Assembly (NCBI GenBank): GCA_016699795.1
Contig: CP065011.1
Location: 546,474 to 610,473, forward strand
DNA length: 64,000 nt
DNA from: Candidatus Moraniibacteriota bacterium
GTDB lineage: Bacteria; Patescibacteriota; Minisyncoccia; Moranbacterales; GCA-2747515
Reading direction: 5' to 3'
Shown here: one piece after another, positions 23,901 through 53,972 of the stretch
How the letters are laid out: each line of letters begins with the position of its first letter
How positions within the stretch are numbered: the first letter of the stretch is position 1
The notes under the pieces: model-generated
Seen by the model: the letters and a program-made list of their open reading frames with translations, nothing else
What the model was told of the DNA's origin: nothing
Database searches by the model: none
Position numbers and translations under genes: made by a program

Positions 23901-26900
23901 CACTATTCATGGAGTAAGTGGTACAGGAGCATCCATAAACACCAACACGAAAGGTTACACTCCTACTCTTGGAACAGGAGCAGGAACAACAGGCTCTCTT
24001 GGATATGGATCAGGAGGAACATATGGAGGAAGAGGAGGAAATAGTAGTGATGGAGCAACTTCCCCTAACACCTATGGAAATGACTTTGTTCCCGAAGATC
24101 TTGGAAGTGGAGGAGGAAAGTCTACAGGAGGAACAGGAGGAGGAGATATACGAATCAGAACGAATAACAATCTCAACCTCTATGGAACCATATCCAGTAA
24201 CGGTAGCGCTGGACTCACCAATGGTGGAGGAGGATCAGGAGGATCTATAAACATACTCTATGCAAAAAACTTCACCATAAACGGTGGAAAGCTTCAAGCC
24301 AATGGTGGGGCGGGACAAGGTGGTGGAGGAGGAGGGGGAGGAGGAAGAATCGCCTATGCCTATGAAAACAAAACATTTACCAATCAAACGATTCAAACAC
24401 TCGGAGGAACAAAAGGAGCTACCGCACCTGCAACTGATGGAAGCGCAGGTTCACTTAAATCTGGATACCTTGCTGGTTCTCTTATCTCTTCAGCATTTGA
24501 TTCCAGTAGTGATGCTAATGTCATGGGAACAATAGAATGGAAAGAAAATGAAATACTCCCAACAGGTTCTTCAGTAACTCTTTCTCTCAAAACTGCAGGA
24601 ACGAAAGGAAATCTTTCTTCTTCCCCCTGGATACAAATAGCACAATCTACTCCCTCTTCTCTTACTACACATTGTACAAAAAACAATACAACGGTAAGTT
24701 GCACAGCCAGTGCTATCCCTCAAGATATGAAAGATATCTTTGAAGATCGCTTCTTTCAATACAAAGTAGATCTTTCTTCTCCTGACCTTCTTTCTCAACC
24801 TCAAGTCGATGATGTAAAAGTAGGCTATGTTGTGAATGCTTTCCCTATGATTCAAAATGTAACCACTACTCCCAATACTGATAAAACAGTAACTATCACG
24901 TACGAAACAAAAGATGAAGATACCAATACCGGAACCAATACTCCAGGAATAGTTACTCCGAGCTTTGAATACTACAATGGAAGTAGTTGGATCAATATCG
25001 CTTCCAATACTCTAGCTCCCGAAGATATACAAAACAAAACAGTGAATCAAGATACGTACACAACACACAGTGCTACCTGGACTCCTTCTCTCGTAAGTGA
25101 ATCTTTCTATCTTACCAATGCAAAAATCCGTGTAACCGTAAGTGACAATGAAGGAGCGAATAATATCGCACGAGCTGAATCAAATACCTTTACCCTCGAT
25201 ACAAAAACTCCCACCAATCCCTCCCTCCTTGTTGATGCTTCCACTCAAGACCTCACCATTCCCTCCACCACATCTGTTCTTACTCTTGGAGTCAGTGATG
25301 ACTCTCCAACACAGATGAAGATTTCTCTTGACGAAAACCTTACCAACTCTCCTTGGGAACCTTTTAATGCAACGGTAACAATAAAACTCGAAACTGATCC
25401 CGACATTGTCTATACTCGCTTCAAAGATCAATACGGGAATGAAACACAAACCATACACACAACTACTCCAGAAACTCCTACACGAGTCATTTCTCAAGAT
25501 ACGAGTAATATGCTTCTTACCCCTCCAGAATACCGAGCCTTCGTAGGATTCAAAACAATAGAAGAACCTCCAACAGGATTCGGAAACTACAAACTCTATA
25601 GAAGTGATGACGCTACTACCTATACGCTTCAAAATATCATAACCTCAAGAACAACAAACTTCCTTACTGATGCTACCCCACAACCAGACATTCTCTACAC
25701 CTACAAAGCAAAGACAACAGACACACCAGGAAATGTTTCTTTCTTCTCACAAACCGTTACGATGAAAGCAAATGGTATTCAAGACTTCGGAGAAGGTGGA
25801 GGAGGATCAGATCAAACCCCTCCTGTTCTACAAAACGTAACCGTAGAATCTAAAGACACCACAACCGTAACTATCACATGGGAAACAGATGAACTCTCTG
25901 ACTCTCGTGTAGAATATGCAACCACTCCCAACACCTATACCAAACAAACAGGAGTCTCTACCTATGCTGACACCCAAGCACAATCAGGACTTCATAGAGT
26001 CACTCTTACCAACCTCACACCAAACACTCCCTACTTCTTTAGAGTTGCCTCTACTGATCCTCAAGGCAATACCGGAGTCAATGACAATAATGGCAATGGA
26101 TATGAAGTCACAACGAATCCTGGACCTTCTATCAGTGGTGTAGCGGTATCAAGTGCTTCTAACACACAAGCAACCATATTCTGGAATACGAATGTCCCTG
26201 CAGACTCTGTACTCCATTACAGTGAAAACAAGAATGGATCTCTTATCGATCCTATCACTCTCTCCGGATCAAGTGTTCTTACAAAAAATCATCAAGTAAC
26301 CTTAGATGCTCTTACTCAAGGAACCACCTACTATTTCTACGTTACCTCCACCGACTCACAAGGAAACATTGCCAATGACAATAATGGAGGAAACTATTTT
26401 CAATTCTCTACAACACTCGACGAAACACCTCCTACCATAACGAATCTTCAAACATCTCTTATCTCAAATGACAAAGCAGTTATTACAGCAAACACAGATG
26501 AAGAAGCATCCTTCCTCCTTCAGTACAGAAAAAAAGGAAGCCTTACCTTCACACAAACAGAACAAGGAACAACATACGATAGATCTCACTACAGGGTACT
26601 CGATACTCTTACTCCTGATACAGAGTATGAATATCAAGTGAGTGTTAAAGATATCAATCAAAACGAATCACAGAGTGATATACAAACAATGAAAACAACC
26701 TTAGATCCAGAATACAATCATGCACCTCTTTCAAAGATTCATACTATCAGTGATCCTCCTAAAGTACTCACTGATCAAAAAGCAGTCATAACCTTCCAGA
26801 CGGATCAAGCAGCAAACTGCATCCTTGAATATGGAACCCAATCAAGAAACTACCAAGAAGTTCCTCAAACAGAAGCGACAGGAATCTATGACACACTCCA

Positions 26901-28257
26901 TTCCCTGCATCTTGGAGGACTCATCTTTAACACAACCTACTTCTACAAACTTCTTTGTGAAGATAATCTTGGAACCCTCATAGAGAGTGAAGAAAAAAGC
27001 TTCACAACAAAACTCAAACAAGTAGACAGTGGAAGTGAACAAGCAGAATCTACTCCTCCCTCTATCTCAGGAGTCAAAGTCAAAGACATTACAGGAGAGA
27101 GTGCAGTCGTCAGTTGGGAGACGGATGAAGTTTCAAACTCACAGGTGAGGTATGGGACGACGAAGGAATTCGGGTCTGGGTCAATAGACGACACAGTCAA
27201 CTCCTCCCTCCAAAACTACACCACCTCCCACTCCGTAACTCTCCGAGGCCTCATCCCATCTACCAAATACTACTACTCCGCCCTCTCTCTCGACACCGCC
27301 GGAAACATAGGCACCTCCTCCCAACAAACCTTCCAAACGCAATCTCCTTCTTCCATCTCTTCCATTAAAGCTTCTTCCAAACAAATAGGGGAAACAACTA
27401 TCACATGGAAAACTTCCACTCCCACTACCTCTATTGTTGAATATGGAAACACAGAAAACTATGGACAAACAAGAAAAAGTGAAGAACTCAAAAAAGATCA
27501 TGAAATTATCATAAACAATCTTTTAGAAAACTCTACCTACCACTTCCGAGTAAAAGGAGAAGATGAATCAAAAAATCTCTTCTCTTCTTCCGACTCTACC
27601 TTTGAACCAAAGTCTCCACCACAAATCAAAGAAATCAAGATAGAAGTTCTTTCAGACAGAGAAGCAAAAGTAAACTTCCTTACTGATACTCTTACCGACT
27701 CTCTTGTAACCTACAAAAACAAAAACAAAGAAGAAGATCAAAAGAGTGAAGGAAATCCCTCCCTCCTCCAAACTCACTCCCTCACCCTCAAAGAACTCAC
27801 TCCTGGAGAAAACTACGTTCTTACTGTACGAGTCAGAGATGATATGGGAAATGAAACTCTCTCTGATGAGATAGAATTCACTATGCAAAAAGATGAAACT
27901 TCTCCTACAGTAGAAAGAGTCTCTACCGACTCCGCTCTTTCACAAAACGGAAAAGTACAAATGATTATTAACTGGCAAACAGATGAAGATGCTTCTTCCT
28001 CCCTCATCTACAAAGAAGGAAGAGCAGGAGAAGAAAAAACAGTGAATGTAAGTTCTTCCCCAACAAAGAATCACATCATTGTACTCACCTCTTGGAAACC
28101 AGGAACTCTCTACTCTTACAAAGTCATAGTAAAAGATCTGAGTGGGAATGAAACCATAACCAAAGACTACATCACCCTTACACCACAAACAAAAGAATCT
28201 GTTGTAGAACTCATCATAAAGAACTTCAAAGAAATCTTTGCTTGGACGGGAGGGTAG
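20901..28257 (+). CDS. Giant secreted surface protein (~2450 aa if joined) split into ORFs 20901..23351 and 23338..28257 by a frameshift at a G9 tract. It has a signal peptide, a thrice-repeated Gly-rich beta-helix-like module and about eight FN3/purple-acid-phosphatase-N-like domains.
   Basis: The module continues across the frame break: ..NLGTGGNNNSGGG|SIVLNVAESVI.. parallels the earlier ..NIGSGGTSISGAGSVILNVTGSVF.. FN3-like units have the form TITWETDELSDSRVEYATT...HRVTLTNLTPNTPYFFRVAS. Confidence 0.75.
21333..22798 (+). repeat. Exact in-frame tandem duplication, period 858 bp (286 codons). About 605 bp is 100% identical between the copies. A diverged third copy begins near 23090.
   Basis: aatctcgatgttcaaaccggaggacagattaatgtggatgggaaggggtatagtgg... 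recurs at 21335 and 22193. Protein segment NLDVQTGGQINVDGKGY...KNLVLRNKGQISVPTGTTL is duplicated. Confidence 0.9.
23319..23327 (+). repeat. Homopolymeric G9 tract at the frame break of the giant gene
   Basis: ttcagggggggggatc. With G8 (or G11) the two ORFs fuse in frame. Confidence 0.85.
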
Positions 28258-28462
28258 GAGGGGAGAGAATGAATCCTTTCTCTCTTGTTTCCCTTGTGAA
28301 GGTGGGGGTCTATTTGATCCATTAGAACTTGAGGATTTCTTATTTTTTTAGAAACCGTATAGAAACTTTATCGTTTTATAAAAATGAGATATACTTTAGG
28401 AAGAAAGAAATACTTTTCTTGCAGGTTAGGTTATTTTTTCAAAAAAATAGAATATAAAGCGT

Positions 28463-31400
28463 ATGGTTCAAGTTATTCGCGGACAGGCAAAAGATGATAC
28501 ACGACAAGAGCGAACATTCCTTGCTAAAAAGGTCATGGAAAAGATGCGGAGTCGGAGCGAAGAAGAGCAAGCCTCTTTATTAGCTCAAAGTCTAGGTTTT
28601 CCTTATGTGGACCTTAATATTATACCAATCAATACCGACTATGTCCGACTTATGTCTGTAAAGATGGCGTTGGAAAATGAAACGGGAATATTTTTGCGAA
28701 GAGCTCATGTAATTTATGCTGTTTTGACGAGACTAGATAATGAAAATGCAAAAAAAGTTGTTCAAGAAATAGCTGATGAGAATGGATGGACAGTTTTGTG
28801 GCATATTGTATCAAAAACTTCCCTCATACGTTTACATGAGCGATATAAGAAATTCTCTTTTTTTGAGAGCATTGACAACATGAAGCTCGATCTTTCTGCT
28901 GATGATTTTTCTGCATTGCAAAAAAAGTTTTCTGATATACTGGCACTCAAAAAAAATATCCTTAGCATGACAACAACGCAAACACTTTCTCTTGTGGTTG
29001 CAAGTGCTGTTTCTCTGAGGGCAAGTGATATTCATTTTGAGCCCCAAGATGAAGGTGTTCGTATGCGTTATCGTTTGGATGGTGTCTTACAAGATATTGG
29101 AATACTTCCATTTGAATCATATAAATACATTGTTTCTCGTATAAAGATGATGGGAAACATGAAATTAAATATTCGAAAAAGTTCTCAAGACGGACACTTT
29201 TCCTTCGAAGTAAATAATCAAGAAACAGGCATTACAAAACATCGTATTGATATTCGAGCAAGTTTATTACCGAGTCGATTTGGAGAAACGTTGGTAATGC
29301 GTATTTTGGATCAGAAGGGTGTTTTTTTGGATATAGCAGAATTGGGTCTTCGTGGTTATGCTTTTGAGCAACTACAAGAACAGATGAAAAGAACGAGTGG
29401 AATGGTTATAACGACAGGGCCAACCGGATCAGGAAAAACAACACTTCTTTATAGTATTCTCAAACAACTCAATGAACCGGGGGTAAAAATAATAACCATA
29501 GAAGATCCTGTGGAATATGAAGTAAAAAACATATCCCAAACGAACGTTTCCAAAGAAGATGGCTATACTTTTTCAACAGGATTACGCTCTATCGTTCGTC
29601 AAGATCCTGATATTATTCTTGTTGGAGAAATCCGTGATGATGATACTGCAAATATTGCTATTCAAGCAGCTCTTACAGGACACTTTGTTCTTTCTACTTT
29701 GCATACAAATAGTGCTGCGGGTTCTATACCAAGACTTATTAATCTTGGTGTAAAACCATCACTCATACCATCTTCTGTAAATGCTTTTATAGCACAACGT
29801 TTGGTTAGAAAATTATGTTTAGACTGTAGGGAATCATATGCTCCTGCGGAGAAAACAAAAGAAATGATTACAAAAATCATCGCTCTTATCTCACCAAAAG
29901 CTAGTGTGGCAATCCCAGCGTCATTGGAAGTCCTCTATAGACCAAAAGGTTGTTTGAAATGTAATTATACTGGATATAAAGGAAGAATAGGAATTTTTGA
30001 AATACTTTTTGTAACAGAGGGTATTGTGCAAAAAATAGAGGAATTAGCTTCAGAAATGGAAATTACAACAGCTGCTATTGAGGATGGAATGATTACTATG
30101 ACGCAAGATGGTATTCTTAAGGCTGTTGAGGGTATTACTTCTATGGAAGAAGTGTGGAGAGTGGGAGGACAATTTCAGTTTCTTGAAGATGTATATGAAA
30201 AATTAATGATGAGTTATCTTAACCGAGCTCTTTATATACCCTACACAATGCACAAAGAGATTCAGGATGCCGTTAGTACAGTTTCAAGCTTTCAGTCACA
30301 TATAGAAACCGCCCCTTCAGAAGAATTTTTTCAGAGAATTGTTTCGTATGCAGTATCTCTTGGAGCAGAAGATATTCATGTTGAACCAGAAGAGGCTGAT
30401 GTAAATATTCGTTTTCGTATAGATGGTGTATTGCAATCGGTGGCACATCTTCCTATGAGTCATTACCCAGTTTTTTTGGGTAAAATAAAACTTCTTTCTG
30501 GTATAAAAACAGAGGAACTCGCAGGACTTCGTGATAGTCGGTTTACTATAAAAAGGGAATTGGAAAATTCTTTGGATACGGAGTCAATCGATGTTCGTGT
30601 CTCAATTATTTTGGGAGGCTATGGAGAAACCGCCGTGCTTCGTCTTCTTAATATCGGAGCTCAAGCGAAGGATCTTTTTTCTTTGGGTATGAGAAAAGAA
30701 ACTCAACAAAAACTTGAAGAAGCAATGAAGACTCCCAATGGTGTTATCCTTACTACAGGACCAACGGGGTCGGGTAAGTCAACAACGCTTTATAGTATTC
30801 TTTCCAAACTCAATGAACCACATAGAAAAATCATGACTGTGGAAGATCCTATTGAATATAGAATAAGTGGAGTACTTCAAACACAAACAGATGAATCAAA
30901 AGGGTATAGCTTTTCTGTAGCACTTCGAGCACTTCTTCGTCAAAATCCCGATATCATTCTTGTAGGAGAAATTCGTGATGGAGAAACGGCAACTATGGCG
31001 GTACAATCTTCACTTACGGGTCATTTAGTTTTTTCAACATTGCACACAAATGATGCTCCCTCAGCTATACAACGATTATTGAATATGGGAGTTTCCCCTC
31101 AAGACATTGTTGGTGCTATTAATTTCGTTATGGCTCAAAGACTTGTGAGGACGTTGTGTGAATGTAAGCGACAAAGAGAAGCGACAGAGGAGGAGCAACG
31201 AGATATGTACGCTTTTTATTCGCAGTATGCAAAAGTTATAAACTTAAAAACAATGCCAGATTTTTCTCATGTATACGAACCTGTTGGATGTAAAAAATGT
31301 CGAGGAATCGGCTATTCCGGAATGGCTATGATTAGTGAAGGATTCGATATGAAAGACGAAGCCTTCCGAGATATTATTATGAGAGGAGGATCGATTTATG

Positions 31401-31516
31401 AAATTCGTCGAATCGCTATTGAAAATGGAATGATACCAATGGTGGTTGATGGTATTGATAAGGCTATTTCTGGAGTAACAAGTTTGGAAGATGTTCGTCG
31501 TGTGACGGAATTATAA
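28463..31516 (+). CDS. pilB: Tandem-fused double type II/IV secretion ATPase (two complete PilB/GspE modules in one 1017-aa chain)
   Basis: Module 1 has a GspE_N domain, GPTGSGKTT, IITIEDPVEYEV, DPDIILVGEIRD, TGHFVLSTLHTNSA, and CxxC...CxxC. Module 2 has GPTGSGKST, IMTVEDPIEYRI, DPDIILVGEIRD, TGHLVFSTLHTNDA, and CEC...CKKC. Confidence 0.85.
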   Translation: MVQVIRGQAKDDTRQERTFLAKKVMEKMRSRSEEEQASLLAQSLGFPYVDLNIIPINTDYVRLMSVKMALENETGIFLRRAHVIYAVLTRLDNENAKKVVQEIADENGWTVLWHIVSKTSLIRLHERYKKFSFFESIDNMKLDLSADDFSALQKKFSDILALKKNILSMTTTQTLSLVVASAVSLRASDIHFEPQDEGVRMRYRLDGVLQDIGILPFESYKYIVSRIKMMGNMKLNIRKSSQDGHFSFEVNNQETGITKHRIDIRASLLPSRFGETLVMRILDQKGVFLDIAELGLRGYAFEQLQEQMKRTSGMVITTGPTGSGKTTLLYSILKQLNEPGVKIITIEDPVEYEVKNISQTNVSKEDGYTFSTGLRSIVRQDPDIILVGEIRDDDTANIAIQAALTGHFVLSTLHTNSAAGSIPRLINLGVKPSLIPSSVNAFIAQRLVRKLCLDCRESYAPAEKTKEMITKIIALISPKASVAIPASLEVLYRPKGCLKCNYTGYKGRIGIFEILFVTEGIVQKIEELASEMEITTAAIEDGMITMTQDGILKAVEGITSMEEVWRVGGQFQFLEDVYEKLMMSYLNRALYIPYTMHKEIQDAVSTVSSFQSHIETAPSEEFFQRIVSYAVSLGAEDIHVEPEEADVNIRFRIDGVLQSVAHLPMSHYPVFLGKIKLLSGIKTEELAGLRDSRFTIKRELENSLDTESIDVRVSIILGGYGETAVLRLLNIGAQAKDLFSLGMRKETQQKLEEAMKTPNGVILTTGPTGSGKSTTLYSILSKLNEPHRKIMTVEDPIEYRISGVLQTQTDESKGYSFSVALRALLRQNPDIILVGEIRDGETATMAVQSSLTGHLVFSTLHTNDAPSAIQRLLNMGVSPQDIVGAINFVMAQRLVRTLCECKRQREATEEEQRDMYAFYSQYAKVINLKTMPDFSHVYEPVGCKKCRGIGYSGMAMISEGFDMKDEAFRDIIMRGGSIYEIRRIAIENGMIPMVVDGIDKAISGVTSLEDVRRVTEL

Positions 31517-39335: not shown

Positions 39336-40805
39336 ATGGTGGAGAAAAAAATCTTAAAGAAAGAAGTTCGTAGTCGAAAAAATACTTCTACTGAAAAGAA
39401 AAAACCTCAAGAATTAAAAGCTAAGAAGGAGATAATAAGAAAGAAAGGTGCTTCGGAGGTAAAAAATTTGAATAAAACGGATTTGCATATTCGAACTATG
39501 AAAAAAGATATAAAGAATGTGAATCTAAAAACAGTTTTGAAGGAGAAGAAAATTATTATAAAAAAGGAATCAAAGAAGGATATTTTGAGAAGATCAGCGG
39601 AAGAATCTTTGAGAAAAAAAGAACTTGCCTCAAAAAAGAAATATGATTTAAATATTTCTCTTGAGGTTTCTATGGGGGATGAATTTAGTGAAAAATTAAT
39701 ACAAGGCGCCATTGACGAGCTTTTTGCAAAGGGAAAACAACGTGGCTTTGTTACAGAAGACGAAATCATTCATGTTATGCCGGATATGGAGGATACCGTG
39801 GATGATGTTGAAAATTTATATGAAAAATTTGAAACAGCAGGTATTCGAGTTTTAAATTCAGACGAGCTTTTACGAATGGATGCCCCCCTGAAAGATAAAA
39901 AATCAACAAATAGTAAAGAGGCTGTATCTCGAACTGATTATCTTGTGCATCCTCGAGAGGGTGAAGAAGATGGAAATAGTTCGGATCTCGTTCAGATGTA
40001 TCTTCGAGAAATTGGAAGGGTAAAACTTCTTACTTTCGAAGATGAAATTCATCTTGCTAAACAAATTGAAAAAGGAGATCCTATATCAAAACAAAGACTT
40101 ACTGAGGCAAACCTTCGACTTGTGGTGAGTGTTGCTAAGAAATATGTAGGACGATCAAAAAGTTTATCACTTCTTGATCTTATCCAAGAAGGAAATATTG
40201 GATTGTTTCGTGCTGTGGAAAAATTTGATTATCGTAAAGGATATAAATTTTCGACATATGCAACATGGTGGATCCGTCAAGCGATAACAAGAGCACTTGC
40301 TGATCAGTCTCGAACTATACGAATTCCTGTGCATATGGTAGAAACAATCAATAAATATATGCAGATAAATCGTAGGCTCGTTCAGGAACTTGGAAGAGAT
40401 CCTCTTGCTGAAGAAATAGCTGCAGAAATGGATGTAGAAGTGGAAAAAATTCGTTATATTCAGAAAATTTCTCAAGAGACGGTTTCTTTGGAAACATCTG
40501 TGGGAGAAAGTGATGATGATAGTGTTTTGGGGGATTTTATCGAAGACACAGAAACCCTCATGCCTCATCAAGTAGCTTCTCAAAAACTTCTTAAAAAACA
40601 TATCGATGAAGTTCTTGCTGATTTATCACCAAGAGAACAGAAAATTCTTACGATTCGTTTTGGTTTAGAGGACGGAGTAACGCATACTCTCGAAGAAGTA
40701 GGTCAAGAATTCGGAGTAACTCGAGAACGTATTCGACAGATTGAAGCAAAGGCTTTAGAGAAGATTCGAGAGAATGATCGATCTAAAAAACTTAGGCACT
40801 ATTGA
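39336..40805 (+). CDS. rpoD: RNA polymerase sigma-70 factor
   Basis: Region 2 [41 protein letters not shown]. Region 4 [24 protein letters not shown]. Basic N-terminal extension. Confidence 0.9.
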
Positions 40806-41209: not shown

Positions 41210-41283
41210 TCCGGGATGGCGCAGCGGTAGCGCAGGTGACTGTTAATCACTTGGTCGTCGGTTCGAATCCGACTCCCGGAGCA
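41210..41283 (+). tRNA. tRNA-Asn (anticodon GTT)
   Basis: TCCGGGA acceptor. D-arm GCGCagcggtaGCGC. Anticodon stem-loop GGTGA-CTGTTAA-TCACT. T-arm GTCGGTTCGAATCCGAC. 3' acceptor TCCCGGA followed by G and CA. Confidence 0.85.
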
Positions 41284-42874
41284 GAACTGGAGAACTAGAG
41301 TATAAAAGCTCTAGTTTTTCTTTATCTTCGGGCAAATTCGTAGGTTCGAACTGCTTGAATATCGTCTTTATCTCAGAAGAGATTTTTTCAAGGCCGACTA
41401 ACTTATTATTGGCTTCAATATTGAGTTTTTTCTCAGAAAGTGAGAGGTTCGAACCAATTGCCTTGAATATCTCTTTTCGCTTTTCTTCGTCGCCATCCTT
41501 GAATTTTTCTAGTGCATCTTGGGCGAATGCAAGCCATTCCTTGGCTTCTTCAAGTTGGTCTATCCAGTTGGTTGAATTGCTCTCAGAAGCGTCCAAACTT
41601 GCTCTAAGGCGTGATTTTTCTTGGGATATGGTATCTTTCTTGGTAATGAACTCACCTTCGCTTAGCTCGCCATTTATTCGCATATCTAGGAGTCTATCTA
41701 GCTTTTTGTCACAAGCTTCGAATTCTTTTTTGTGATCCTCGAGTGCTTGTTTCTTTTCTTCGATTTCATCCCTATTTTCTTCCATCAGTTTTTTGATTGC
41801 CCATTCCAAGAAAGTTGGATGAATCTTTATTTTCTTGAGAATTTTTATAATTTCTTCTTCAAACTTCTTTTCTTCGACCACTTTTTGATCACATTTTGGA
41901 TCTAGTCGATGACTGCAATGATAGTAGATGTAATAATGGGTGTTTCCATTCTGACATTTTTTAATTTTGTGTTCAGCTACAACTGATGCTCCGCATATTC
42001 CGCATCGTGTTGCTCCAGTATATTTGAAACTATATTTTCTTGGCCTAGTCGTTCCTCGTCGGCCGAGAATCATTTGAGTCTTTTCAAATTCCGCTTGAGA
42101 GATCATTGGCTCATGCTTTCCTTTATGCCATTGTCCGCTATCAGATGGGAATTCATACCAGCCATAGTAGAATGGGTTATTCATCATTGCATACCATGAG
42201 CTGATGGAAACTTTTTGACCATGCTTGTTTGTAAATTTCCAATCGCTAGTTCCTTTTCTATATGCCTCCGGGGGAGTGAGCTTTCCTGAAGCTACCATCT
42301 TCAGCATTTTTTGAATCGTTTCAAATCTTTCAGGGTCTTTTTCAATTTCTTTTTCACCTTTTAGTTTGATGGGATTGTGTTTGTATCCGAGTGGCGACCC
42401 ATTAGGATACCAACCTCGCTCTGCTTTGTTTCGTAGCCCTCGCTTTGTGTCAGTGCTTAAGTCTCGAATGAATTGATTTGCCATTCCTTGCTCTACAGCC
42501 ATCACCAGAACATTATCTTCAGGGTAATAACTTCTTCCGAATGTAAAAATATGTTTTATCATCTTACCCTGTAGCATCCAACTTATCGTACCGCTATCTA
42601 CAGGATTTCTAGACAGGCGATTAAGTTTCCAACAAAGTATTCCATCAGCTTCACCCCGTTTTATTTTTTCAAACATTTCGTTAAAAACTATCCTCCCAGG
42701 CTCTTTGGCTGATTTGGATTCATGCATAATTTCAGATATATTCAACCCGTTTTCTTCTGCGAGTCTTTTTAACTCTTCTATTTGTGAGTCGATTGATGCC
42801 ATTTGTCGATCCTCACTTTCGGATGATTTTCTGGCATAGAGGATGTATTTATTTGCCTTCACTTCTTGGTTCAT
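41243..42874 (-). CDS. Large serine recombinase (integrase)
   Basis: N-terminal resolvase domain YILYARKSSESEDRQMASIDSQ (catalytic Ser). Recombinase domain. Zinc-ribbon CGICGASVVAEHKIKKCQNGNTHYYIYYHCSH. Coiled-coil. 543 aa. Confidence 0.85.
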   Translation of the reverse strand: MNQEVKANKYILYARKSSESEDRQMASIDSQIEELKRLAEENGLNISEIMHESKSAKEPGRIVFNEMFEKIKRGEADGILCWKLNRLSRNPVDSGTISWMLQGKMIKHIFTFGRSYYPEDNVLVMAVEQGMANQFIRDLSTDTKRGLRNKAERGWYPNGSPLGYKHNPIKLKGEKEIEKDPERFETIQKMLKMVASGKLTPPEAYRKGTSDWKFTNKHGQKVSISSWYAMMNNPFYYGWYEFPSDSGQWHKGKHEPMISQAEFEKTQMILGRRGTTRPRKYSFKYTGATRCGICGASVVAEHKIKKCQNGNTHYYIYYHCSHRLDPKCDQKVVEEKKFEEEIIKILKKIKIHPTFLEWAIKKLMEENRDEIEEKKQALEDHKKEFEACDKKLDRLLDMRINGELSEGEFITKKDTISQEKSRLRASLDASESNSTNWIDQLEEAKEWLAFAQDALEKFKDGDEEKRKEIFKAIGSNLSLSEKKLNIEANNKLVGLEKISSEIKTIFKQFEPTNLPEDKEKLELLYSSSPVLLRESDSNRRPSD

Positions 42875-45856: not shown

Positions 45857-47845
45857 ATGAACGATGCATATTTTGGAAATAAAAAGATTTGTATAACGCA
45901 AAGACGTTATCTTGGCTCTAAAACTAAGCTACTATCATTTATAGATAGTATACTTGAAGGTGAGAATATAGAGTTTAATTCTTTCGCTGATATTTTTGCT
46001 GGAACTGGCACTGTTGCCAATCATTTTTATAATCGCTCTAAAATTATAGTGAATGATATTTTAGATTCAAATTCTCATGTCTACACAGCGTTTTTTGGTA
46101 AGGACATAATCAGGGAACAAAAACTGAAAGAACGACTAAAACATTATAATGACATTGAAATCAAAGAATATGATGAAAATTATTTTTCAAAAAACTTTTC
46201 AAACACTTATTTTGACGCAGAAAACGCTAAAAAAATAGGAATTATTAGGGATGATATTGAAAAATTATTTGAAGAAAAAATAATTACCAGTAGAGAAAAA
46301 TCTTATTTACTGACATCTTTGATTTACGCACTTGATAGAATTGCCAACACGGTTGGCCATTACGACGCATACAGAAAAATTGATATTCCAAATAAAAAAC
46401 TATTCTTGCTACCCCTTGATATAGCAAACTCTCGCTACTCTGCCAAAATCTACAAAGATGACGCTAATGAGTTGGTAAAAAAAATAAAAGCAGATGTTGT
46501 TTATATTGACCCGCCGTATAATTCTAGGCAGTATTCAGATTCTTATCACTTATTAGAAAATATCGCTACTTGGAAAAAGGAGACAGTTTTTGGTGTTGCC
46601 AAAAAAATTGACCGCTCTCACATCAAAAGCGAGTACAACATGAAATCTGCAGGCGTTGCCTTTGGCGATTTAATAGATAATATTAATGCGAAATATATCC
46701 TTGTTTCTTATAATGATATGGGGACTTCGGGTAATGCTCGTTCACAATCACGTATCAGTGACCATGAGATTTTGTCGTCGTTAAAACGGCGAGGTGAGGT
46801 AAAAGTCTTTGAAACCAACTTCAAACAATTCACTACTGGAAAATCGAGCAAGGATGATCTAAAAGAACGCATATTTTTGTGTAAGGTAGACATTGTCTCA
46901 AGAAACAATAAGGCGATAATTGCCTCAAAAAATAATCCTGTTCAAGCTGGCTTTGTAAAATCACCCCTTAACTACACTGGCGGAAAACATAAACTTTTAC
47001 CGCAAATAACAAAGTTATTTCCAGTTGGTATAAAAACTTTTTATGATGTATTTTCTGGCGGTGCGAATGTTGGAATTAACTCTACGGCTAAAAATATAAT
47101 CTGTATTGAAAAAAATCGTTATGTAGTAAGTCTGTTGAAGTTAATACAAAATGATAATTTTGAAGATTTGAATCAAAAAGTGATTGACATTATAGATAAA
47201 TTTGGTTTAAGCCAGAGCTATATAAAGGGCTACGACCATTATAATGTGGATAGTTCATCGGGTCTTGGTCAATACAATAAAGACGCTTTTCTAAATCTTC
47301 GCAGTGAGTTTAATAAAGAAAAAACAAGAATTGATTTATTGTTGGTGCTTGTTTTGTATTCTTTCAATAACCAAATTAGATTTAATTCAAATGGCGATTT
47401 TAATTTACCAGTTGGAAAACGGGATTATAATGGTAGTTCGAGGAGAAATGTTGCGTCTTTCAGCCAAGTATCAAACGAGAAAAAAATAGCATTTAAAAAT
47501 TGTGATTTTCGTGATGTTGAAAAAATGTCATTAATGAAAGATGATTTTGTGTATTTAGATCCACCATATTTGCTGGGTCTTGCTAGTTATAATGAAAAGG
47601 GAGGCTGGACAGAAAAAGATGAGAAAGACTTATATATACTCTTGACCAGACTCGATAAGAAAGGAATTAGATTTGCTTTATCAAATGTTTTAGAGCATAA
47701 AGGCAAAACTAATACAATTATGAAAAACTGGGCAAAAAAGCATAGTTACAAGATTCATAAACTAAACTATGACTACAAAAACTCAAATTATCACTCTACT
47801 GCAAAAAATAATAAAACCGTAGAGGTGCTTATTACAAATTACTGA
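45857..47845 (+). CDS. Fused tandem N6-adenine DNA methyltransferase (two D12-class/Dam-like domains), type IIS-style M subunit
   Basis: Domain 1: YLGSKTKLL, FAGTGTVA, VVYIDPPYNS. Domain 2: NYTGGKHKLL, FSGGANVG, FVYLDPPYLLG. Same architecture as M.AlwI/M.PleI/M.MlyI. Confidence 0.85.
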   Translation: MNDAYFGNKKICITQRRYLGSKTKLLSFIDSILEGENIEFNSFADIFAGTGTVANHFYNRSKIIVNDILDSNSHVYTAFFGKDIIREQKLKERLKHYNDIEIKEYDENYFSKNFSNTYFDAENAKKIGIIRDDIEKLFEEKIITSREKSYLLTSLIYALDRIANTVGHYDAYRKIDIPNKKLFLLPLDIANSRYSAKIYKDDANELVKKIKADVVYIDPPYNSRQYSDSYHLLENIATWKKETVFGVAKKIDRSHIKSEYNMKSAGVAFGDLIDNINAKYILVSYNDMGTSGNARSQSRISDHEILSSLKRRGEVKVFETNFKQFTTGKSSKDDLKERIFLCKVDIVSRNNKAIIASKNNPVQAGFVKSPLNYTGGKHKLLPQITKLFPVGIKTFYDVFSGGANVGINSTAKNIICIEKNRYVVSLLKLIQNDNFEDLNQKVIDIIDKFGLSQSYIKGYDHYNVDSSSGLGQYNKDAFLNLRSEFNKEKTRIDLLLVLVLYSFNNQIRFNSNGDFNLPVGKRDYNGSSRRNVASFSQVSNEKKIAFKNCDFRDVEKMSLMKDDFVYLDPPYLLGLASYNEKGGWTEKDEKDLYILLTRLDKKGIRFALSNVLEHKGKTNTIMKNWAKKHSYKIHKLNYDYKNSNYHSTAKNNKTVEVLITNY

Positions 47846-49791: not shown

Positions 49792-51360
49792 TTGTGCTAT
49801 TTTTTATATATGGTACAGAAAAGAGAAAATATCTTCGAAGTATATAAGCCTCTAAGGAACCACTTGAGAAAGTGTGAACTTGCTAATTCCTTGGAGGTAA
49901 TAAGAGCATATGCTCAAAATTTGCAATTTGGTAATAATAACTTTCCGCCTTATGTAGAAGTTTTAAATGAATTTTTGCAAAAGGATCATATTCAGAAAAC
50001 AAGATGGGTTTCCGAATGGAATCTGGAAATTCTAGCTAAAGAAGTAATAATAAATTCACCTATAAATGAGTGGAACGCAAAAACATTTAGACGGTGGTCG
50101 TATTTTATTGGTGCTGTTAATAAGCTTAAAGATATAGAAGGTAAAATTGCTACTGATCACATAGATGTATCAAATGTGCTTCGAGAATTAGAAAGAATGG
50201 CTCATGGTCAATTTGGCTGGCAAATCGGTCGCCCAAGTGCGGAGCTAATGGCAAGGTATTATAGAATTTATAGCACGTCCGAAATGGATACCTTAATAAG
50301 AGGTGCTATTGGATTAACAACAAAAGAGCTTTATTTTATGGGAGTTGCACTTACAGGATCATTTTTAACGCATTTTGCTTTGCATTATCCTCCTAAAATT
50401 GAAATTCCTGGATTAACTCAAGAAGCTATGGATAAATTTCTAAAGCATTTTTCATCCGATATTACTACTTTGAAAGAAAAATTAATATGCGAACAAAACA
50501 TAAATGAAAATTATTTTTACGCCTTTTCTTCCTTGAGAGGATATCCAATTATAAAGATGGATTTTGAAGGCAGATTTTGCTTAACTTGTCCCATTCCTAC
50601 GCTTTTATTCTGGAGAATCACTAGTGGATTATATTACGAAGTGGTCGATCAAAAAGGTTTTGACAATGCATTCGGAGCTTCATTTCAAAAGTATATTGGT
50701 GATTGTATTTCTGCTTCAATTACTAATGAGAATATAACGGCATTACCTGAGGAAAAAATTAGAGAAGGAAAAAATGAAAAAGATACGGTGGATTGGATAA
50801 TCGATGATGGTAAATCTGCTATTTTTATTGAGTGCAAGGCAAAGAGAATGACAATGCCTTCAAAGACTGAGTTGGTTATAAGTGATGCTTTCAGGAGGGA
50901 TGTCGAGAAAATGGCTGGTTTTGTTGTTCAGGTTTATAAAACCATAAAAGACTACCGAGCTGGAAAATATCTATCATATAGTTATGATGAAAAGAGGAAA
51001 GTATATCCGCTCGTGGTAACTCTCGAAGACTGGCACTTGTTCGGGGATAATGATTTATTGAAAGCCAAGATTGAAGAAAAATTAAAGGCGGAAAATATAT
51101 CACTGGATTGGTTGTCTAGTATGCCTTATACGATATGCTCGGCTCAAGAATTTGAAGAAATGATTCAGATTATTCAATTTAAGGGCATAGATGGAGTTGT
51201 TGGTAAAAAATCGAAAGATCCTGAAAAAGTTAAATGGGCAATGGCAAGTTTTCTGTCTTCTGAATATCCAGATGAGCATAAAAATACTAAAGCTTTATTT
51301 TTGAAAGACTTCAATTCTATTTTTCCAGATGAGATAGTCAAAAAAATAAAGATCAAATAA
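49792..51360 (+). CDS. Hypothetical protein with a PD-(D/E)xK-like nuclease motif (operon gene A)
   Basis: GASFQKYIGD...VDWIIDDGKSAIFIECKAKRMT (D..D...ExK spacing). Confidence 0.4.
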   Translation: MCYFLYMVQKRENIFEVYKPLRNHLRKCELANSLEVIRAYAQNLQFGNNNFPPYVEVLNEFLQKDHIQKTRWVSEWNLEILAKEVIINSPINEWNAKTFRRWSYFIGAVNKLKDIEGKIATDHIDVSNVLRELERMAHGQFGWQIGRPSAELMARYYRIYSTSEMDTLIRGAIGLTTKELYFMGVALTGSFLTHFALHYPPKIEIPGLTQEAMDKFLKHFSSDITTLKEKLICEQNINENYFYAFSSLRGYPIIKMDFEGRFCLTCPIPTLLFWRITSGLYYEVVDQKGFDNAFGASFQKYIGDCISASITNENITALPEEKIREGKNEKDTVDWIIDDGKSAIFIECKAKRMTMPSKTELVISDAFRRDVEKMAGFVVQVYKTIKDYRAGKYLSYSYDEKRKVYPLVVTLEDWHLFGDNDLLKAKIEEKLKAENISLDWLSSMPYTICSAQEFEEMIQIIQFKGIDGVVGKKSKDPEKVKWAMASFLSSEYPDEHKNTKALFLKDFNSIFPDEIVKKIKIK

Positions 51361-51364
51361 AATT

Positions 51365-52372
51365 ATGACATTGATTCTAGGTGTCCACATGGCCACAAAA
51401 ACATTTTTAATATCAGATACTAGACTTACTAAGCAAATGAGCGATGGCAGTTTTAAGTATGAAGATACTATCAATAAATCTTTTTCTTTGAACAAAAGAA
51501 TGAGTGGGATAGCGGCAGGACATGTTCAGCTTGCCGCTTTTGTGTTGAAGAAATTGAGGGAAAAAATTTCAGATGATTCTTTTATGATGGACTTAGAAAA
51601 AACAATCAATGAAAATGCAAACGATATCATTAAGGATTTTGTAAATACAACAATGATGACTAATCAGTTTACGGCAATGATATTCGCAGGATTTGATCGT
51701 GGTAGGGGGAAGAAAATAGGGGCAGCCATGCTTGGAAATGTAATGTCTGCAGAGTTAGCCTCTAGGGGAAATGGTTCGAGAATGAATCAGGCCGTTCATG
51801 CTAAAATTAAAGATGCATTAGCAGAAAATCTGATAAAAAGGGGTACGCTTGGAAAGGACTCCTTTATTGATGTAGATTTACCAAATTCAAGAATGCTTTC
51901 CCTGAAAATTGGAACTCGTCAATATGCCAATGGAAACTTCTATGAATTAAAAGAAATTGAATGCTATAACTATGTTTCTTTCTATCCTGATCAAGAATTC
52001 AAGAGCGTTATTTTGCCAAATACCTTGTTAACAAGTATTGAATTTCCTGAATTTGAGACTGTTTCCCCAAAAGAAGATGCTTTTGTTTATAGTGACTCAA
52101 TCAAGCTTATCAATTTTGTAAGGAAGGTTGTTAGGGAAAATAACTTTGTAAATGTTGGCGGCAATATCTTTCCTTTAATAGTTTTGCCTGAAGGGAGTAT
52201 ATTTCCTACGGGAGATATTGCAGTAATGGAAGATGGGAGACCCAAGATTATTGGGGGAATTCATTCTATCGATAATGTTTTATGCTATACATTGCCTGAT
52301 GGCACAAAAGGTCAATTTCAAACTATTGAGGGCTTGGGCGAAAATCCTTCAGTTACTCAATTACAAATATGA
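51365..52372 (+). CDS. Proteasome beta/HslV-like N-terminal nucleophile hydrolase homologue with a ~140-aa C-terminal extension (operon gene B)
   Basis: After Met removal, TLILGVHMATKTFLISDTRLT aligns with archaeal beta TTTVGITLKDAVIMATERRVT (Thr1, Gly5, Asp/Glu17, Arg19, Thr21). Also SGIAAGHVQLAAFVLKKL versus GMTIAGLVGDAQVLVRYM, and MIFAGFDRG versus LLVGGID. Confidence 0.45.
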   Translation: MTLILGVHMATKTFLISDTRLTKQMSDGSFKYEDTINKSFSLNKRMSGIAAGHVQLAAFVLKKLREKISDDSFMMDLEKTINENANDIIKDFVNTTMMTNQFTAMIFAGFDRGRGKKIGAAMLGNVMSAELASRGNGSRMNQAVHAKIKDALAENLIKRGTLGKDSFIDVDLPNSRMLSLKIGTRQYANGNFYELKEIECYNYVSFYPDQEFKSVILPNTLLTSIEFPEFETVSPKEDAFVYSDSIKLINFVRKVVRENNFVNVGGNIFPLIVLPEGSIFPTGDIAVMEDGRPKIIGGIHSIDNVLCYTLPDGTKGQFQTIEGLGENPSVTQLQI

Positions 52373-52929
52373 ACAATGACGATTTGAAAAAAATAAAGAA
52401 GTACATTGGAGTTGCTGAAAAAATAAGGAATTCAAACTTCATCAAAAATACAAAGCAGGTTAGTTTTAAGATGAATATCGAAATAGACAAGCCTGTTCGT
52501 TTTGAATCCACTGGATTTGATGAAGACCTGCTCAAATCAGCCTTGATGGATTTTAGAAAAATATACATGAAAAAAGACAGCACTAATTTTTTTCGTATAT
52601 ATAACTTGATATACAAAAATACCGATGATATTGCGATTAAGAACAATATAGAGAAGTGTAGAGAGATTTATGCGAAAATACTTAGTAGACCGACATCCAT
52701 AGGAATATACATAAACAAAGAGCTTCAAAATGTCGAAAAGATTATAGATGATTGGCTATACGGATACTATTTTCATGAAGATGATGAGAGAGAAGAAAAA
52801 ATGCAGGCCATAATGATAGGGCAACTATTTCATAGAGCATCATTCGTAACTTCCATTATAGATCTGATGAAAATTGCTATTGTTATGTCTAATAATGCAA
52901 AAAAGATTATATCGGAGTATGAGAGTTGA
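52369..52929 (+). CDS. Hypothetical protein (operon gene C, 186 aa)
   Basis: Start overlaps gene B stop (ATGA). No family recognised. Confidence 0.35.
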   Translation: MNNDDLKKIKKYIGVAEKIRNSNFIKNTKQVSFKMNIEIDKPVRFESTGFDEDLLKSALMDFRKIYMKKDSTNFFRIYNLIYKNTDDIAIKNNIEKCREIYAKILSRPTSIGIYINKELQNVEKIIDDWLYGYYFHEDDEREEKMQAIMIGQLFHRASFVTSIIDLMKIAIVMSNNAKKIISEYES

Positions 52930-52945
52930 CCTTTATTCGACTTGG

Positions 52946-53521
52946 TTAGCTTTTGTAAGGAGTGCTTTTGGGCAGTAGTAAATCATTTTTTTCAAAAAAA
53001 TCTTTCCATACATACATGCACCCTTGCACAACTCCTTTCAGGTCGTATTGATTACCTTTAAAGGTTACTAGATAATTACCCATAAATATCCCTTCCTCTT
53101 CTTTTAAATGTAGCGTTTCTTTTCTTTCTTGAGCCTCTTTAAGTTCTTTTGTAGATGCCTTAAAAATAGAACCCCCATAAGGCACTATTTTTGTGTCAGG
53201 ATCATTTGGCTTGTATTTTAATACTGCATGCTTTGATTTATTGCATAAATCACGACACATCTGGAATTGCACAGGAGAATCATGATTTTCGAAAGTTGGA
53301 AGTTTATCCTTTATGAGTTTATCAACCTTGCCATCTTCTTGAACCCACTCTCTGAGGTGATAGCAAGTTAGGAGGAAATCATAAACATCATCTAATCTCT
53401 CCTGAGAACTTTTTGAAAAAGTAGTACTTTCAAAATCGGCTATGATCTTGTCATGAACTCGCTCCATACGCCTGTATTGACTTTCAAGGCTTTCTGAATA
53501 ATCTTCTCTTGATTTTGTCAT
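52946..53521 (-). CDS. Hypothetical protein (191 aa), convergent on the operon
   Basis: Intact ORF. No family recognised. Confidence 0.35.
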   Translation of the reverse strand: MTKSREDYSESLESQYRRMERVHDKIIADFESTTFSKSSQERLDDVYDFLLTCYHLREWVQEDGKVDKLIKDKLPTFENHDSPVQFQMCRDLCNKSKHAVLKYKPNDPDTKIVPYGGSIFKASTKELKEAQERKETLHLKEEEGIFMGNYLVTFKGNQYDLKGVVQGCMYVWKDFFEKNDLLLPKSTPYKS

Positions 53522-53699
53522 AAGATTAGGGTTAATAATTATATTATCAATTATAGCATTTTATGCCTAATGGGTTCGTATCATTTTCAACTCGTGGAGC
53601 CATCTTTCGCCAAGGCTACAGAATGGCATGCCACAATGGTAAACTATTTATGTAACTATTGGTCTTAAACTATGCTATGCACACTACACCTATATCCTC

Positions 53700-53972
53700 T
53701 TGAGTTCAAAATCTCATATTTTTTATTTTGGCTCAACAAATAATCTCAAAGAAAGAATAATTTCGCACAATACAGGAAAAGTAAAATCAACAAAGCCACA
53801 TCTACCGTGGAAGATTGTTTGGTATGGAGTATTTTCTACAGAGAAAGAAGTAAGAGATTTTGAACTCTATCTCAAAACGGGTTTAGGTAAGGCCTTTGCG
53901 TATAAACGACTTATTTCTGTAGCTTTGGCGAAAGATTTTTTAGGGGGTCGTAATGGTATTACGAAACTTTAG
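53700..53972 (+). CDS. GIY-YIG nuclease family protein (small, intact)
   Basis: HIFYFGSTNNLKERIISHNTGKV...LPWKIVWYGVFSTEKEVRDFELYLKTGLGK. TTG start. Ends 9 nt before the distal direct repeat. Confidence 0.65.
   Translation: MSSKSHIFYFGSTNNLKERIISHNTGKVKSTKPHLPWKIVWYGVFSTEKEVRDFELYLKTGLGKAFAYKRLISVALAKDFLGGRNGITKL

What the first reader, a model, noticed from the sequence alone, without database searches (positions are those of the whole stretch)
49792..53521. Uncharacterised operon (PD-(D/E)xK-like protein + proteasome/HslV-like Ntn hydrolase + small protein) next to the RM system: candidate novel defence system
Three tightly packed genes (4-nt gap, then a 4-nt ATGA overlap) sit immediately downstream of the RM module inside the mobile island. 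Gene A (522 aa) has a D...IIDD...ECK arrangement typical of PD-(D/E)xK nucleases. Gene B (335 aa) aligns residue-by-residue from memory with the mature proteasome beta-subunit N-terminus. Thr becomes residue 1 after Met removal, with Gly5, Asp17, Arg19 and Thr21 in register, a GxxxAG helix and a GFD/GGID motif. That would make it a propeptide-less HslV/Anbu-like threonine protease with a unique ~140-aa C-terminal extension, and no AAA+ partner is present. Gene C (186 aa) and the convergent 191-aa gene have no recognisable family. A nuclease plus a self-compartmentalising protease in a defence-island context is not a described system that I recognise.
Basis: inference. Interest (0 to 1): 0.85.

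Follow-up and report, generated by a model that had tools for sequence, protein, structure and literature searches.

The report
GAPS1-like nuclease beside orphan proteasome-like hydrolase
The end of a mobile island in a Patescibacteria genome carries separable defence-type modules: a restriction system, a distant relative of the known single-gene anti-phage nuclease GAPS1, and a rare proteasome-fold hydrolase of unknown function, so this is probably not one new three-gene system.

Summary
The four ORFs and their tight junctions are real.

- **Gene A** is not an orphan. It is a distant member of the GapS1/GAPS1 anti-phage PD-(D/E)xK family: NCBIfam NF047931 E 1.6e-26 but below the curated cut-off, invariant D334/E347/K349, and the same D-to-K spacing as the GAPS1 residues whose mutation abolishes defence. 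Its wider family is stand-alone.
- **Comparative genomics does not support an obligate A+B+C system.**
  - 77 of 79 A-family loci lack B, and nearly all B-family loci lack A and C.
  - One relative has B-C-D without A, with the breakpoint at A's stop codon.
  - A and B are adjacent in two independent lineages, but both are common cargo of the same serine-recombinase island type.
- B-family genes often sit beside defence genes (Gabija, PDC-S05, HNH, HEPN-like).

Verdict: a modular defence island. Gene B is a plausible but untested new defence-linked or mobile-element protease.

The parts
41210..41282 (+). tRNA-Asn (GTT). It is the likely integration site of the island, and its 3' part is overlapped by the recombinase gene on the other strand.
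   Evidence: ARAGORN; Rfam RF00005, 69.4 bits
41243..42874 (-). Large serine recombinase (543 aa), the island's integrase.
   Evidence: Pfam Resolvase, Recombinase and Zn_ribbon_recom. Homologues lie within 5 kb of other A-family and B-family genes.
45857..47845 (+). Fused double D12-class N6-adenine methyltransferase (662 aa), the RM methylase.
   Evidence: Pfam PF02086, two stretches, E 1.2e-60; PADLOC MTase_II, 566 bits
47849..49681 (+). AlwI-family type IIS / nicking-type restriction endonuclease (610 aa).
   Evidence: Pfam PF09491, E 7.9e-90; PADLOC REase_II, 423 bits. Absent from the related islands L006 and L008.
49792..51360 (+). Gene A, a distant GAPS1/GapS1-family PD-(D/E)xK protein. 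It is 522 aa from the TTG start; the more likely start is the ATG at 49810, giving 516 aa. Active-site residues are D334, E347 and K349.
   Evidence: NCBIfam NF047931, E 1.6e-26, 93.2 bits, curated cut-off 320. 28 of 29 family members hit the same model. Invariant residues. At least 288 homologous clusters.
51365..52372 (+). Gene B, a propeptide-less proteasome-fold Ntn hydrolase (335 aa). The nucleophile is T2, with D18, K38 and G52. There is an ~80-90-aa insertion at about residues 160-238 and a ~45-aa C-terminal beta extension.
52369..52929 (+). Gene C (186 aa), start overlaps the end of B (ATGA). No recognisable family. It accompanies B only in the close clade.
52946..53521 (-). Gene D (191 aa), convergent with C. 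It is conserved together with B-C in L001-L004 and L008. No robust family assignment.
53522..53602 (.). End of the DNA block shared with related islands, i.e. the likely right edge of the conserved cargo block.
   Evidence: blastn: homology with L001 ends at 53602 and with L008 at 53522

Best explanation
The region is the far end of a ~12-kb island in a Candidatus Moraniibacteriota genome. The island carries a large serine recombinase and sits at tRNA-Asn. Its cargo is a stack of separable modules rather than one three-gene machine.

1. **RM module.** A type IIS AlwI-family restriction-modification pair.
2. **Gene A.** A distant member of the GAPS1 family. By homology (inferred) it is a single-protein sensor-effector whose PD-(D/E)xK phosphodiesterase (D334/E347/K349) is switched on by a phage component and arrests growth.
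3. **The B-C-D block.** Gene B is an ATP-independent Ser/Thr N-terminal-nucleophile hydrolase with a proteasome fold. Methionine removal would expose Thr1 (inferred from the known preference of methionine aminopeptidase for small second residues). Asp17, Lys33 and Gly47 equivalents complete the catalytic core. The large insertion between helices H3 and H4 and the C-terminal beta extension probably prevent a classical double-ring assembly, so I propose a substrate-specific peptidase or transpeptidase, as connectase is.
4. **Genes C and D.** C's start overlaps B's end, so it is most likely B's stoichiometric regulator or substrate. D is a further partner of unknown role.

Shown here: the folds, the conserved residues, the modular synteny, and the recurrent location beside serine recombinases and defence genes.

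Inferred: every biochemical activity, and any role of B-C-D in defence.
For: Gene A:
- GapS1 HMM hit at E 1.6e-26, covering model positions 63-430 of 455; 28 of 29 relatives hit it too.
- Invariant D334/E347/K349. The D-to-K spacing is 15 residues, as for GAPS1 D313/K328, whose alanine substitutions abolish defence (bioRxiv 10.1101/2023.03.28.534373).
- No conserved partner in 79 genomic loci.

Gene B:
- Pfam Proteasome above the gathering score.
- Profile-versus-PDB alignment in register with catalytic beta2 subunits.
- Ser/Thr at position 2 in 52/52, D18 52/52, K38 52/52, G52 51/52.

Modularity:
- Shared DNA with L001 covers RM through D. With L006 it starts ~100 nt upstream of A and has no RM. 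With L008 it starts at A's stop codon and covers only B-C-D (tblastn).
- 13 metagenomic B-family loci have no A, C or D. Five further contexts also lack them.

Island and defence context of the B family:
- Serine recombinases in L031, L093, L094, L097 and L098.
- Gabija in L098 and PDC-S05 in L097; HNH in L011; Hypoth_Ymh and HEPN in L009/L010.
- No relatives on IMG/VR contigs or in GenBank phage or plasmid records.
Against: - The 4-nt A-B gap and the B/C overlap imply co-transcription in this lineage. No promoter or terminator signal above chance separates A from B.
- A-B-C moves as one block between two different islands (window and L006).
- A very divergent B-like gene lies head-to-head with a 40%-identical A homologue in L031. 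This second adjacency is hard to put down to pure chance.
- The Ser129 equivalent of the proteasome catalytic pentad is not conserved, so the chemistry may differ from that of a classical proteasome.
- Some distant B-family members lie among housekeeping genes.
- No experiment supports any activity.
Confidence: 0.55

Rival explanations
1. Integrated A+B+C system. The GAPS1-like nuclease and the proteasome-like hydrolase work together. For example, B might process or activate A, remove an inhibitory partner such as C on infection, or degrade the phage trigger.
For: - 4-nt gap and ATGA overlap.
- The A-B-C block is conserved at 74-77% amino-acid identity in a different island that lacks the RM.
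- Independent A-B adjacency in L031, in a different orientation and with highly diverged copies.
Against: - Only 2 of 79 A-family genomic loci carry B. A has no conserved partner.
- GAPS1 and its 24-29%-identical homologues defend as single genes.
- L008 keeps B-C-D without A, with the breakpoint exactly at A's stop codon.
- About 18 other B-family contexts lack A.
- A and B are both frequent cargo of the same serine-recombinase island type, which raises the odds of chance adjacency.
Confidence: 0.22
2. B-C-D is a mobile-element maintenance or regulatory module, not host defence. For example, B could be an anti-repressor-type protease acting on a small XRE-family repressor to control island excision, analogous to ImmA/ImmR of ICEBs1 (analogy from my own knowledge). 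It could also be part of the island backbone.
For: - B-C-D is the constant part of three related islands, while the RM and A come and go.
- B-family genes repeatedly lie 1-4 kb from large serine recombinases.
- A small XRE-type HTH gene is next to B in L031, L093, L097 and L104, directly upstream on the same strand in L093 and L097. Another lies near B in L114.
Against: - No XRE gene lies next to B in the window.
- Most B-family loci have no adjacent HTH gene.
- The same small HTH family is also the commonest neighbour of stand-alone A genes, so it may simply be an island feature.
- Several B-family members have no recombinase nearby.
Confidence: 0.15
3. Gene B is a housekeeping proteostasis protease of Patescibacteria (an HslV or Anbu substitute) that only happens to lie in the island.
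For: - Complete proteasome fold with a conserved catalytic core.
- A few distant family members sit beside trigger factor, H+-PPase or Lon.
Against: - The family is very rare and patchy: 9 clusters at close range and ~150 at 50% clustering among 1.8 billion representatives.
- It lies on a mobile island that differs between near-identical relatives.
- No unfoldase partner is present.
Confidence: 0.05

Closest known systems
GAPS1 (GapS1), the GMT-island single-protein anti-phage system of Vibrio parahaemolyticus and its homologues (Mahata et al., bioRxiv 10.1101/2023.03.28.534373; NCBIfam NF047931)
   Same: - Gene A matches the family HMM over ~80% of its length (E 1.6e-26).
- The PD-(D/E)xK domain lies towards the C-terminus.
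- The D-to-K spacing of 15 residues is identical.
- The size is ~500 aa.
- The wider A family is stand-alone and sits on mobile elements and plasmids.
   Different: - The score of 93 bits is far below the curated family cut-off of 320, so A belongs to a separate, deeply diverged branch found in Patescibacteria, Nitrospirota, Alphaproteobacteria and Betaproteobacteria and other groups.
- Here it is tightly followed by B and C.
- Trigger, target and phenotype are untested.
Proteasome beta subunits and their prokaryotic homologues (HslV, Anbu, BPH, connectase, and the 22 families of Fuchs, Alva & Lupas 2021, PMC8665760, especially the 'PMI' families with an H3/H4 insertion)
   Same: - Nucleophile at residue 1, with Asp17, Lys33 and Gly47 equivalents.
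- No propeptide, as in most of the non-proteasome homologues.
- No AAA+ partner, as Fuchs et al. report for their new families.
- An insertion between H3 and H4, as in PMI-2 to PMI-6.
   Different: - The Ser129 equivalent is not conserved.
- An ~80-90-aa insertion plus a C-terminal beta extension makes a 335-aa subunit.
- It lacks the Anbu operon partners and HslU.
- It lacks connectase's S3/S4 helical insertion.
- Its recurrent placement in serine-recombinase and defence islands is not reported in that paper, which found no informative gene context.
Protease-containing defence systems in general, such as caspase-like, Lon-like or trypsin-like proteases that activate effectors (from my own knowledge)
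   Same: A protease gene sits next to a nuclease-type effector in a defence island.
   Different: - I know of no described system that uses a proteasome-fold threonine/serine Ntn hydrolase, and none turned up in the searched literature.
- No obligatory partner is conserved.
AlwI-type type IIS restriction-modification systems
   Same: An upstream pair: an AlwI-family endonuclease and a fused two-domain D12 methyltransferase.
   Different: It is a separate module and is absent from related islands that keep A-B-C or B-C-D.

Membership tests
GapS1/GAPS1 (NCBIfam NF047931) | Score at or above the curated family cut-off (320 bits) | tested here: not met
   93.2 bits, E 1.6e-26, model positions 63-430 of 455. 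A is homologous but falls outside the curated subfamily.
GapS1/GAPS1 (NCBIfam NF047931) | Conserved PD-(D/E)xK active site (GAPS1 D313 and K328 are essential) | tested here: met
   D334, E347 and K349 are invariant in 29 family members. The D-to-K spacing is 15 residues, as in GAPS1.
GapS1/GAPS1 (NCBIfam NF047931) | Acts as a single-gene system with no conserved partner | tested here: met
   In 79 A-family loci the largest neighbour cluster covers 5 loci and is a small HTH gene. Only 12 of 73 loci have a same-strand gene within 30 nt downstream, and these differ from one another. In the window itself, A is followed by B after 4 nt.
GapS1/GAPS1 (NCBIfam NF047931) | Anti-phage activity triggered by a capsid protein and causing dormancy | not testable with these tools
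   Needs phage challenge experiments.
Proteasome-like T1 Ntn hydrolases (Pfam PF00227) | Pfam gathering score | tested here: met
   30.2 bits against 22.4. 27 of 52 family members hit PF00227 at E<=0.01.
Proteasome-like T1 Ntn hydrolases (Pfam PF00227) | Four-layer alpha-beta-beta-alpha Ntn fold | tested here: met
   [not shown]
Proteasome-like T1 Ntn hydrolases (Pfam PF00227) | N-terminal Thr/Ser nucleophile with Asp17, Lys33 and the Gly47 oxyanion hole | tested here: met
   Position 2 is S (31) or T (21) in 52/52. D18 52/52, K38 52/52, G52 51/52. The register is confirmed against yeast beta2. Removal of the initiator Met is not testable here.
Proteasome-like T1 Ntn hydrolases (Pfam PF00227) | Ser129 / Asp166 / Ser169 (the rest of the catalytic pentad) | tested here: not met
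   The Ser129 equivalent is N136 here and varies or is gapped across the family. A G265-G266 pair, invariant or nearly so, follows helix H4 like proteasome G170-G171, but clear D166 and S169 equivalents were not identified.
Proteasome-like T1 Ntn hydrolases (Pfam PF00227) | Ring or double-ring self-compartmentalised assembly | not tested
   No multimer modelling was available. The H3/H4 insertion lies where ring-ring contacts form (PMC8665760).
HslV | Adjacent HslU AAA+ unfoldase and a compact ~175-aa subunit | tested here: not met
   [not shown]
Anbu | Anbu operon context and a long C-terminal coiled-coil helix H5 | tested here: not met
   The neighbours are an RM pair, a GAPS1-like gene and unknown genes. 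The C-terminus is predicted as beta strands. The operon composition is from my own knowledge.
PMI families of Fuchs et al. 2021 | Insertion between helices H3 and H4 | tested here: met
   The secondary-structure order is H146-159, then strands and a short helix, then H239-259 followed by the conserved 'VGG' and a strand. Foldseek alignments span ~290 columns for ~195-aa targets. Placing the insertion between H3 and H4 is my inference.
PMI families of Fuchs et al. 2021 | Sequence clustering with a published PMI cluster (e.g. WP_137109689.1, OGZ26396.1) | not testable with these tools
   The paper gives accession numbers, but the sequences could not be fetched.
Connectase | Two-helix insertion between S3 and S4 that covers the active site; methanogen MtrA context | tested here: not met
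   [not shown]

The most novel reading that the evidence does not exclude
The gene B family is a new kind of prokaryotic immune or conflict module built on a proteasome-fold Ser/Thr N-terminal-nucleophile hydrolase. It would be carried on serine-recombinase islands of Patescibacteria and able to pair with varied partners: a GAPS1-like nuclease, Schlafen/AlbA_2, SEC-C, HEPN-like or HNH genes, or gene C. That would be the first link between the proteasome fold and anti-phage defence in bacteria.
Probability: 0.22. Interest if true: 0.8.

Novelty: new variant of a known kind. Interest (0 to 1): 0.5.

Why it matters
- Few defence systems are known in Patescibacteria (stated in PMC12366544). This island shows that they carry a diverged branch of the GAPS1 family on tRNA-integrated serine-recombinase islands.
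- Fuchs et al. catalogued 22 proteasome-like families and found no informative gene context for them (PMC8665760). For this family there is now a reproducible context: mobile islands, defence genes, and several different tightly linked partners. It also has a confident structural model.
- That makes a concrete experiment possible: expression with phage challenge, plus a Thr1-to-Ala mutant. If the family proves to be defensive, it would add a new protease class to bacterial immunity.

Tried and rejected
- **AF2 on the first 10-sequence alignment** gave pLDDT 53 and was discarded. The 52-sequence alignment fixed this.
- **The indexed homologue search** found only 9 relatives of B. The exhaustive profile search showed ~150 clusters, so 'almost unique' was an artefact of search sensitivity.
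- **Metagenome scans with broad alignments** failed twice for lack of a conserved stretch. A motif-sharing subset worked.
- **The afdb50 fold library** was unavailable.
- **The 282-aa neighbour of the divergent C relative in L012** is not related to B (hhalign probability 0.3%).
- **C and D versus the HEPN-like genes next to other B-family members:** no similarity.
- **Gene D versus T7 gene 1.2 protein (dGTPase inhibitor):** weak collinear hits (Pfam E 0.056; PDB E 0.5-0.7). The hit disappears with a 3-sequence profile and the 'HD' of the motif is not conserved. I treat it as probably chance.
- **C and A profiles versus PDB sequences:** nothing significant.
- **PADLOC 2023 and PHROGs:** no hits for A-D.
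- **Direct repeats marking island ends:** none found. This is expected for serine recombinases (my own knowledge).
- **Promoter and terminator scans:** nothing above the shuffled expectation.
- **Source names and accessions for B-family proteins:** none recorded.
- **Literature searches** for proteasome-like proteins in defence found nothing relevant. One search was uninformative.


Full report
**1. What is there**

- A: 49792-51360 (+)
- B: 51365-52372 (+)
- C: 52369-52929 (+)
- D: 52946-53521 (-)

The junctions read directly from the sequence. A's TAA stop is followed by AATT and then B's ATG. B and C overlap in ATGA. C and D converge with 16 nt between them. Relatives call gene A from the ATG at 49810, giving 516 aa.

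The window comes from a 1.19-Mb contig of a Candidatus Moraniibacteriota (Patescibacteria) genome. This is the source's name for a protein identical to gene C.

Upstream of gene A lie, in order:
- tRNA-Asn
- a large serine recombinase whose 3' end overlaps that tRNA
- an HTH gene and several small genes
- a fused double D12 methyltransferase
- an AlwI-family endonuclease

**2. Gene A**

Pfam, PADLOC (2023) and PHROGs give nothing for gene A. NCBIfam gives 'antiphage_GapS1' (NF047931) at E 1.6e-26 and 93 bits. The match covers model positions 63-430 of 455, but the score is well below the curated cut-off of 320.

The family is large, with at least 288 clusters of ~510 aa. It is found in Patescibacteria, Nitrospirota, Alphaproteobacteria, Betaproteobacteria, Bacteroidota and one Woesearchaeota MAG, and on proteobacterial plasmids, where it is annotated as hypothetical. 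28 of 29 sampled members hit the same model.

D334, E347 and K349 are invariant. The D-to-K distance of 15 residues equals that of GAPS1 D313/K328. Alanine substitutions at those GAPS1 positions abolish defence. GAPS1 is a single protein triggered by the T7 capsid protein, and it causes dormancy. Homologues with only 24-29% identity to it still defend (bioRxiv 10.1101/2023.03.28.534373).

In 79 genomic loci the A family has no conserved neighbour. Gene A is therefore best read as a deeply diverged, stand-alone GAPS1-type gene.

**3. Gene B**

Sequence evidence:
- Pfam Proteasome is matched above the gathering score: 30.2 against 22.4 bits, residues 4-143.
- The indexed search found only 9 relatives. 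The exhaustive profile search found 152 representatives at 50% clustering. Nearly all are 310-350 aa, and many match over their full length.
- In a 52-member alignment, position 2 is always Ser (31) or Thr (21). D18, R20, K38 and G266 are invariant, and G52 and G265 are each present in 51 of 52.
- A family profile aligns to yeast beta2 in exact register. The nucleophile corresponds to Thr1, D18 to D17, K38 to K33 and G52 to G47.

Structural evidence:
- With the deep alignment, AF2 gives pLDDT 92.8 and pTM 0.91.
- Foldseek aligns ~195-residue beta subunits across ~290 query columns. The fold therefore spans roughly residues 1-290 with a large internal insertion.

From the secondary-structure order I place the insertion between H3 and H4, at about residues 160-238. 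The order is H146-159, then strands and a short helix, then H239-259, then the conserved 'VGG' and a strand. A ~45-residue beta extension follows at the C-terminus. This placement is my inference.

The Ser129 equivalent (N136) is not conserved.

Fuchs, Alva & Lupas (PMC8665760) describe 'PMI' homologues with an H3/H4 insertion. They argue that such insertions could prevent double-ring assembly, and they found no informative gene context for their new families. I could not test whether B falls in one of their clusters.

**4. Genes C and D**

Gene C has 8 relatives and no family or PDB match.

Gene D has no robust match. A weak collinear similarity to T7 gene 1.2 protein disappeared when I used a small profile.

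**5. Do the genes belong together?**

Within the close clade:
- L001-L004 (~91% DNA identity) share RM, A, B, C and D.
- L005/L006/L013 carry A-B-C at 74-77% amino-acid identity. The RM is absent and the recombinase differs.
- L008 carries B-C-D at 73-75% with no trace of A.
- blastn places the L008 breakpoint at 51358, which is A's stop codon. The L006 breakpoint is ~100 nt upstream of A. The shared block ends just beyond D.

B-C-D is therefore the constant unit, and A and the RM are separable.

Beyond that clade:
- B at 53% identity follows an HNH gene (L011).
- B at 33% identity lies between a Hypoth_Ymh gene and a HEPN gene (L009/L010).
- 13 metagenomic loci and 5 further look-ups contain no A, C or D.
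- C at 42% identity occurs without B.
- Of 79 A-family genome loci, only L013 and L031 contain a B-family gene.

L031 is the interesting exception. It is from a Microgenomates MAG, and a very divergent B-like gene lies head-to-head with a 40%-identical A homologue.

However, homologues of the window's serine recombinase lie within 5 kb of seven stand-alone A loci and of several B loci. Both families are therefore cargo of the same island type, which makes repeated adjacency less surprising.

**6. Context of the B family**

- Large serine recombinases: L031, L093, L094, L097, L098
- Small XRE-type HTH genes: L031, L093, L097, L104, L114
- Gabija (GajA and GajB) in L098, and the candidate system PDC-S05 in L097
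- HEPN-like genes and EMARD_N in L106-L109
- A Schlafen/AlbA_2 gene 2 nt upstream in L114, and a SEC-C-motif gene 14 nt upstream in L111
- No relatives on IMG/VR contigs or in GenBank phage or plasmid records
- Some distant members sit among housekeeping genes

**7. Interpretation**

The best-supported reading, at about 0.55, is a modular island. It contains an RM pair, a stand-alone GAPS1-like nuclease, and a B-C-D block. The core of that block is a catalytically competent but atypical proteasome-fold hydrolase. That hydrolase probably does not stack into double rings and probably acts on a specific substrate.

Rivals:
- an integrated A+B+C system (about 0.22)
- a mobile-element regulatory or backbone module (about 0.15)
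- a housekeeping protease (about 0.05)

Nothing in the searched literature links proteasome-like proteins to phage defence.

**8. Verdict**

Gene A is a new, distant member of a known family. Gene B belongs to an uncharacterised proteasome-homologue family. Its association with islands and defence genes is new as far as I could find, but its function is untested. I score interest at 0.5.

Noticed in passing
window 52946-53521 (-), gene D: Residues ~20-96 give weak, collinear hits to T7 gene 1.2 protein, an inhibitor of host dGTPase. Pfam PF10922 scores E 0.056 and PDB 7u65_G scores E 0.53. There is a local motif match: TFENHDSPVQFQMCRDLCNK against TFYHHDEDVLFNMCTDWLNH. The hit disappears with a 3-sequence profile, so it is probably chance.
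   Followed up: partly
L106-L109 (B homologue P0158) and L012 (C homologue P0137): An EMARD_N (PF13910) protein of ~590-630 aa and a 238-aa HEPN/DUF4145-like protein lie next to a B-family gene in one set of contigs. A similar pair lies ~1 kb from a stand-alone gene C relative in another contig. BLAST similarity between the two versions is marginal. This may be a further recurring conflict module.
   Followed up: partly
L098 3802-6430: A complete Gabija pair (GajA 699 bits, GajB 400 bits in PADLOC) lies directly upstream of a recombinase fragment and a B-family gene on a metagenomic contig.
   Followed up: partly
L114 4694-6969; L111 5195-7017: B-family genes are preceded at 2 nt by a 434-aa Schlafen/AlbA_2 gene (L114) and at 14 nt by a 263-aa SEC-C-motif gene (L111). 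A 798-aa SEC-C protein also lies 3 kb away in L114. These are different tightly linked partners for the same hydrolase family.
   Followed up: no
L008 3453-3926: A SocA_Panacea-domain gene (antitoxin-type domain) lies divergent from gene D's orthologue in the island that lacks A and the RM.
   Followed up: no
window 41210-41282 / 41243-42874: The 3' end of the serine recombinase gene overlaps the 3' part of tRNA-Asn on the opposite strand. No direct repeat marks the other island end. The right edge is inferred only from where synteny ends, at ~53600.
   Followed up: partly
window 20901-31516: This stretch has higher G+C (0.40-0.43 against ~0.33) and a GC-skew reversal at 25-28 kb. It encodes an 816-aa protein with no Pfam match and a 1639-aa protein with fn3 and purple-acid-phosphatase-N repeats. 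It also encodes a 1017-aa protein with two T2SSE (type II/IV secretion ATPase) stretches, apparently a tandem fusion. There is no rRNA.
   Followed up: partly
window 53700-53972: A stand-alone 90-aa GIY-YIG domain gene lies just beyond the end of the block shared with related islands.
   Followed up: no
window 39336-40805: A sigma-70-like ORF (conserved RpoD-type motifs visible in the translation) has a ~200-residue Lys/Glu-rich N-terminal extension. It lies just upstream of the tRNA-Asn integration site.
   Followed up: no
L014, L015, L017, L021, L030, L050, L070: Stand-alone A-family (GAPS1-like) genes in several Patescibacteria genomes lie within 5 kb of homologues of the window's large serine recombinase (25-44% identity). 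This suggests a widespread island family that carries defence cargo in this phylum.
   Followed up: partly
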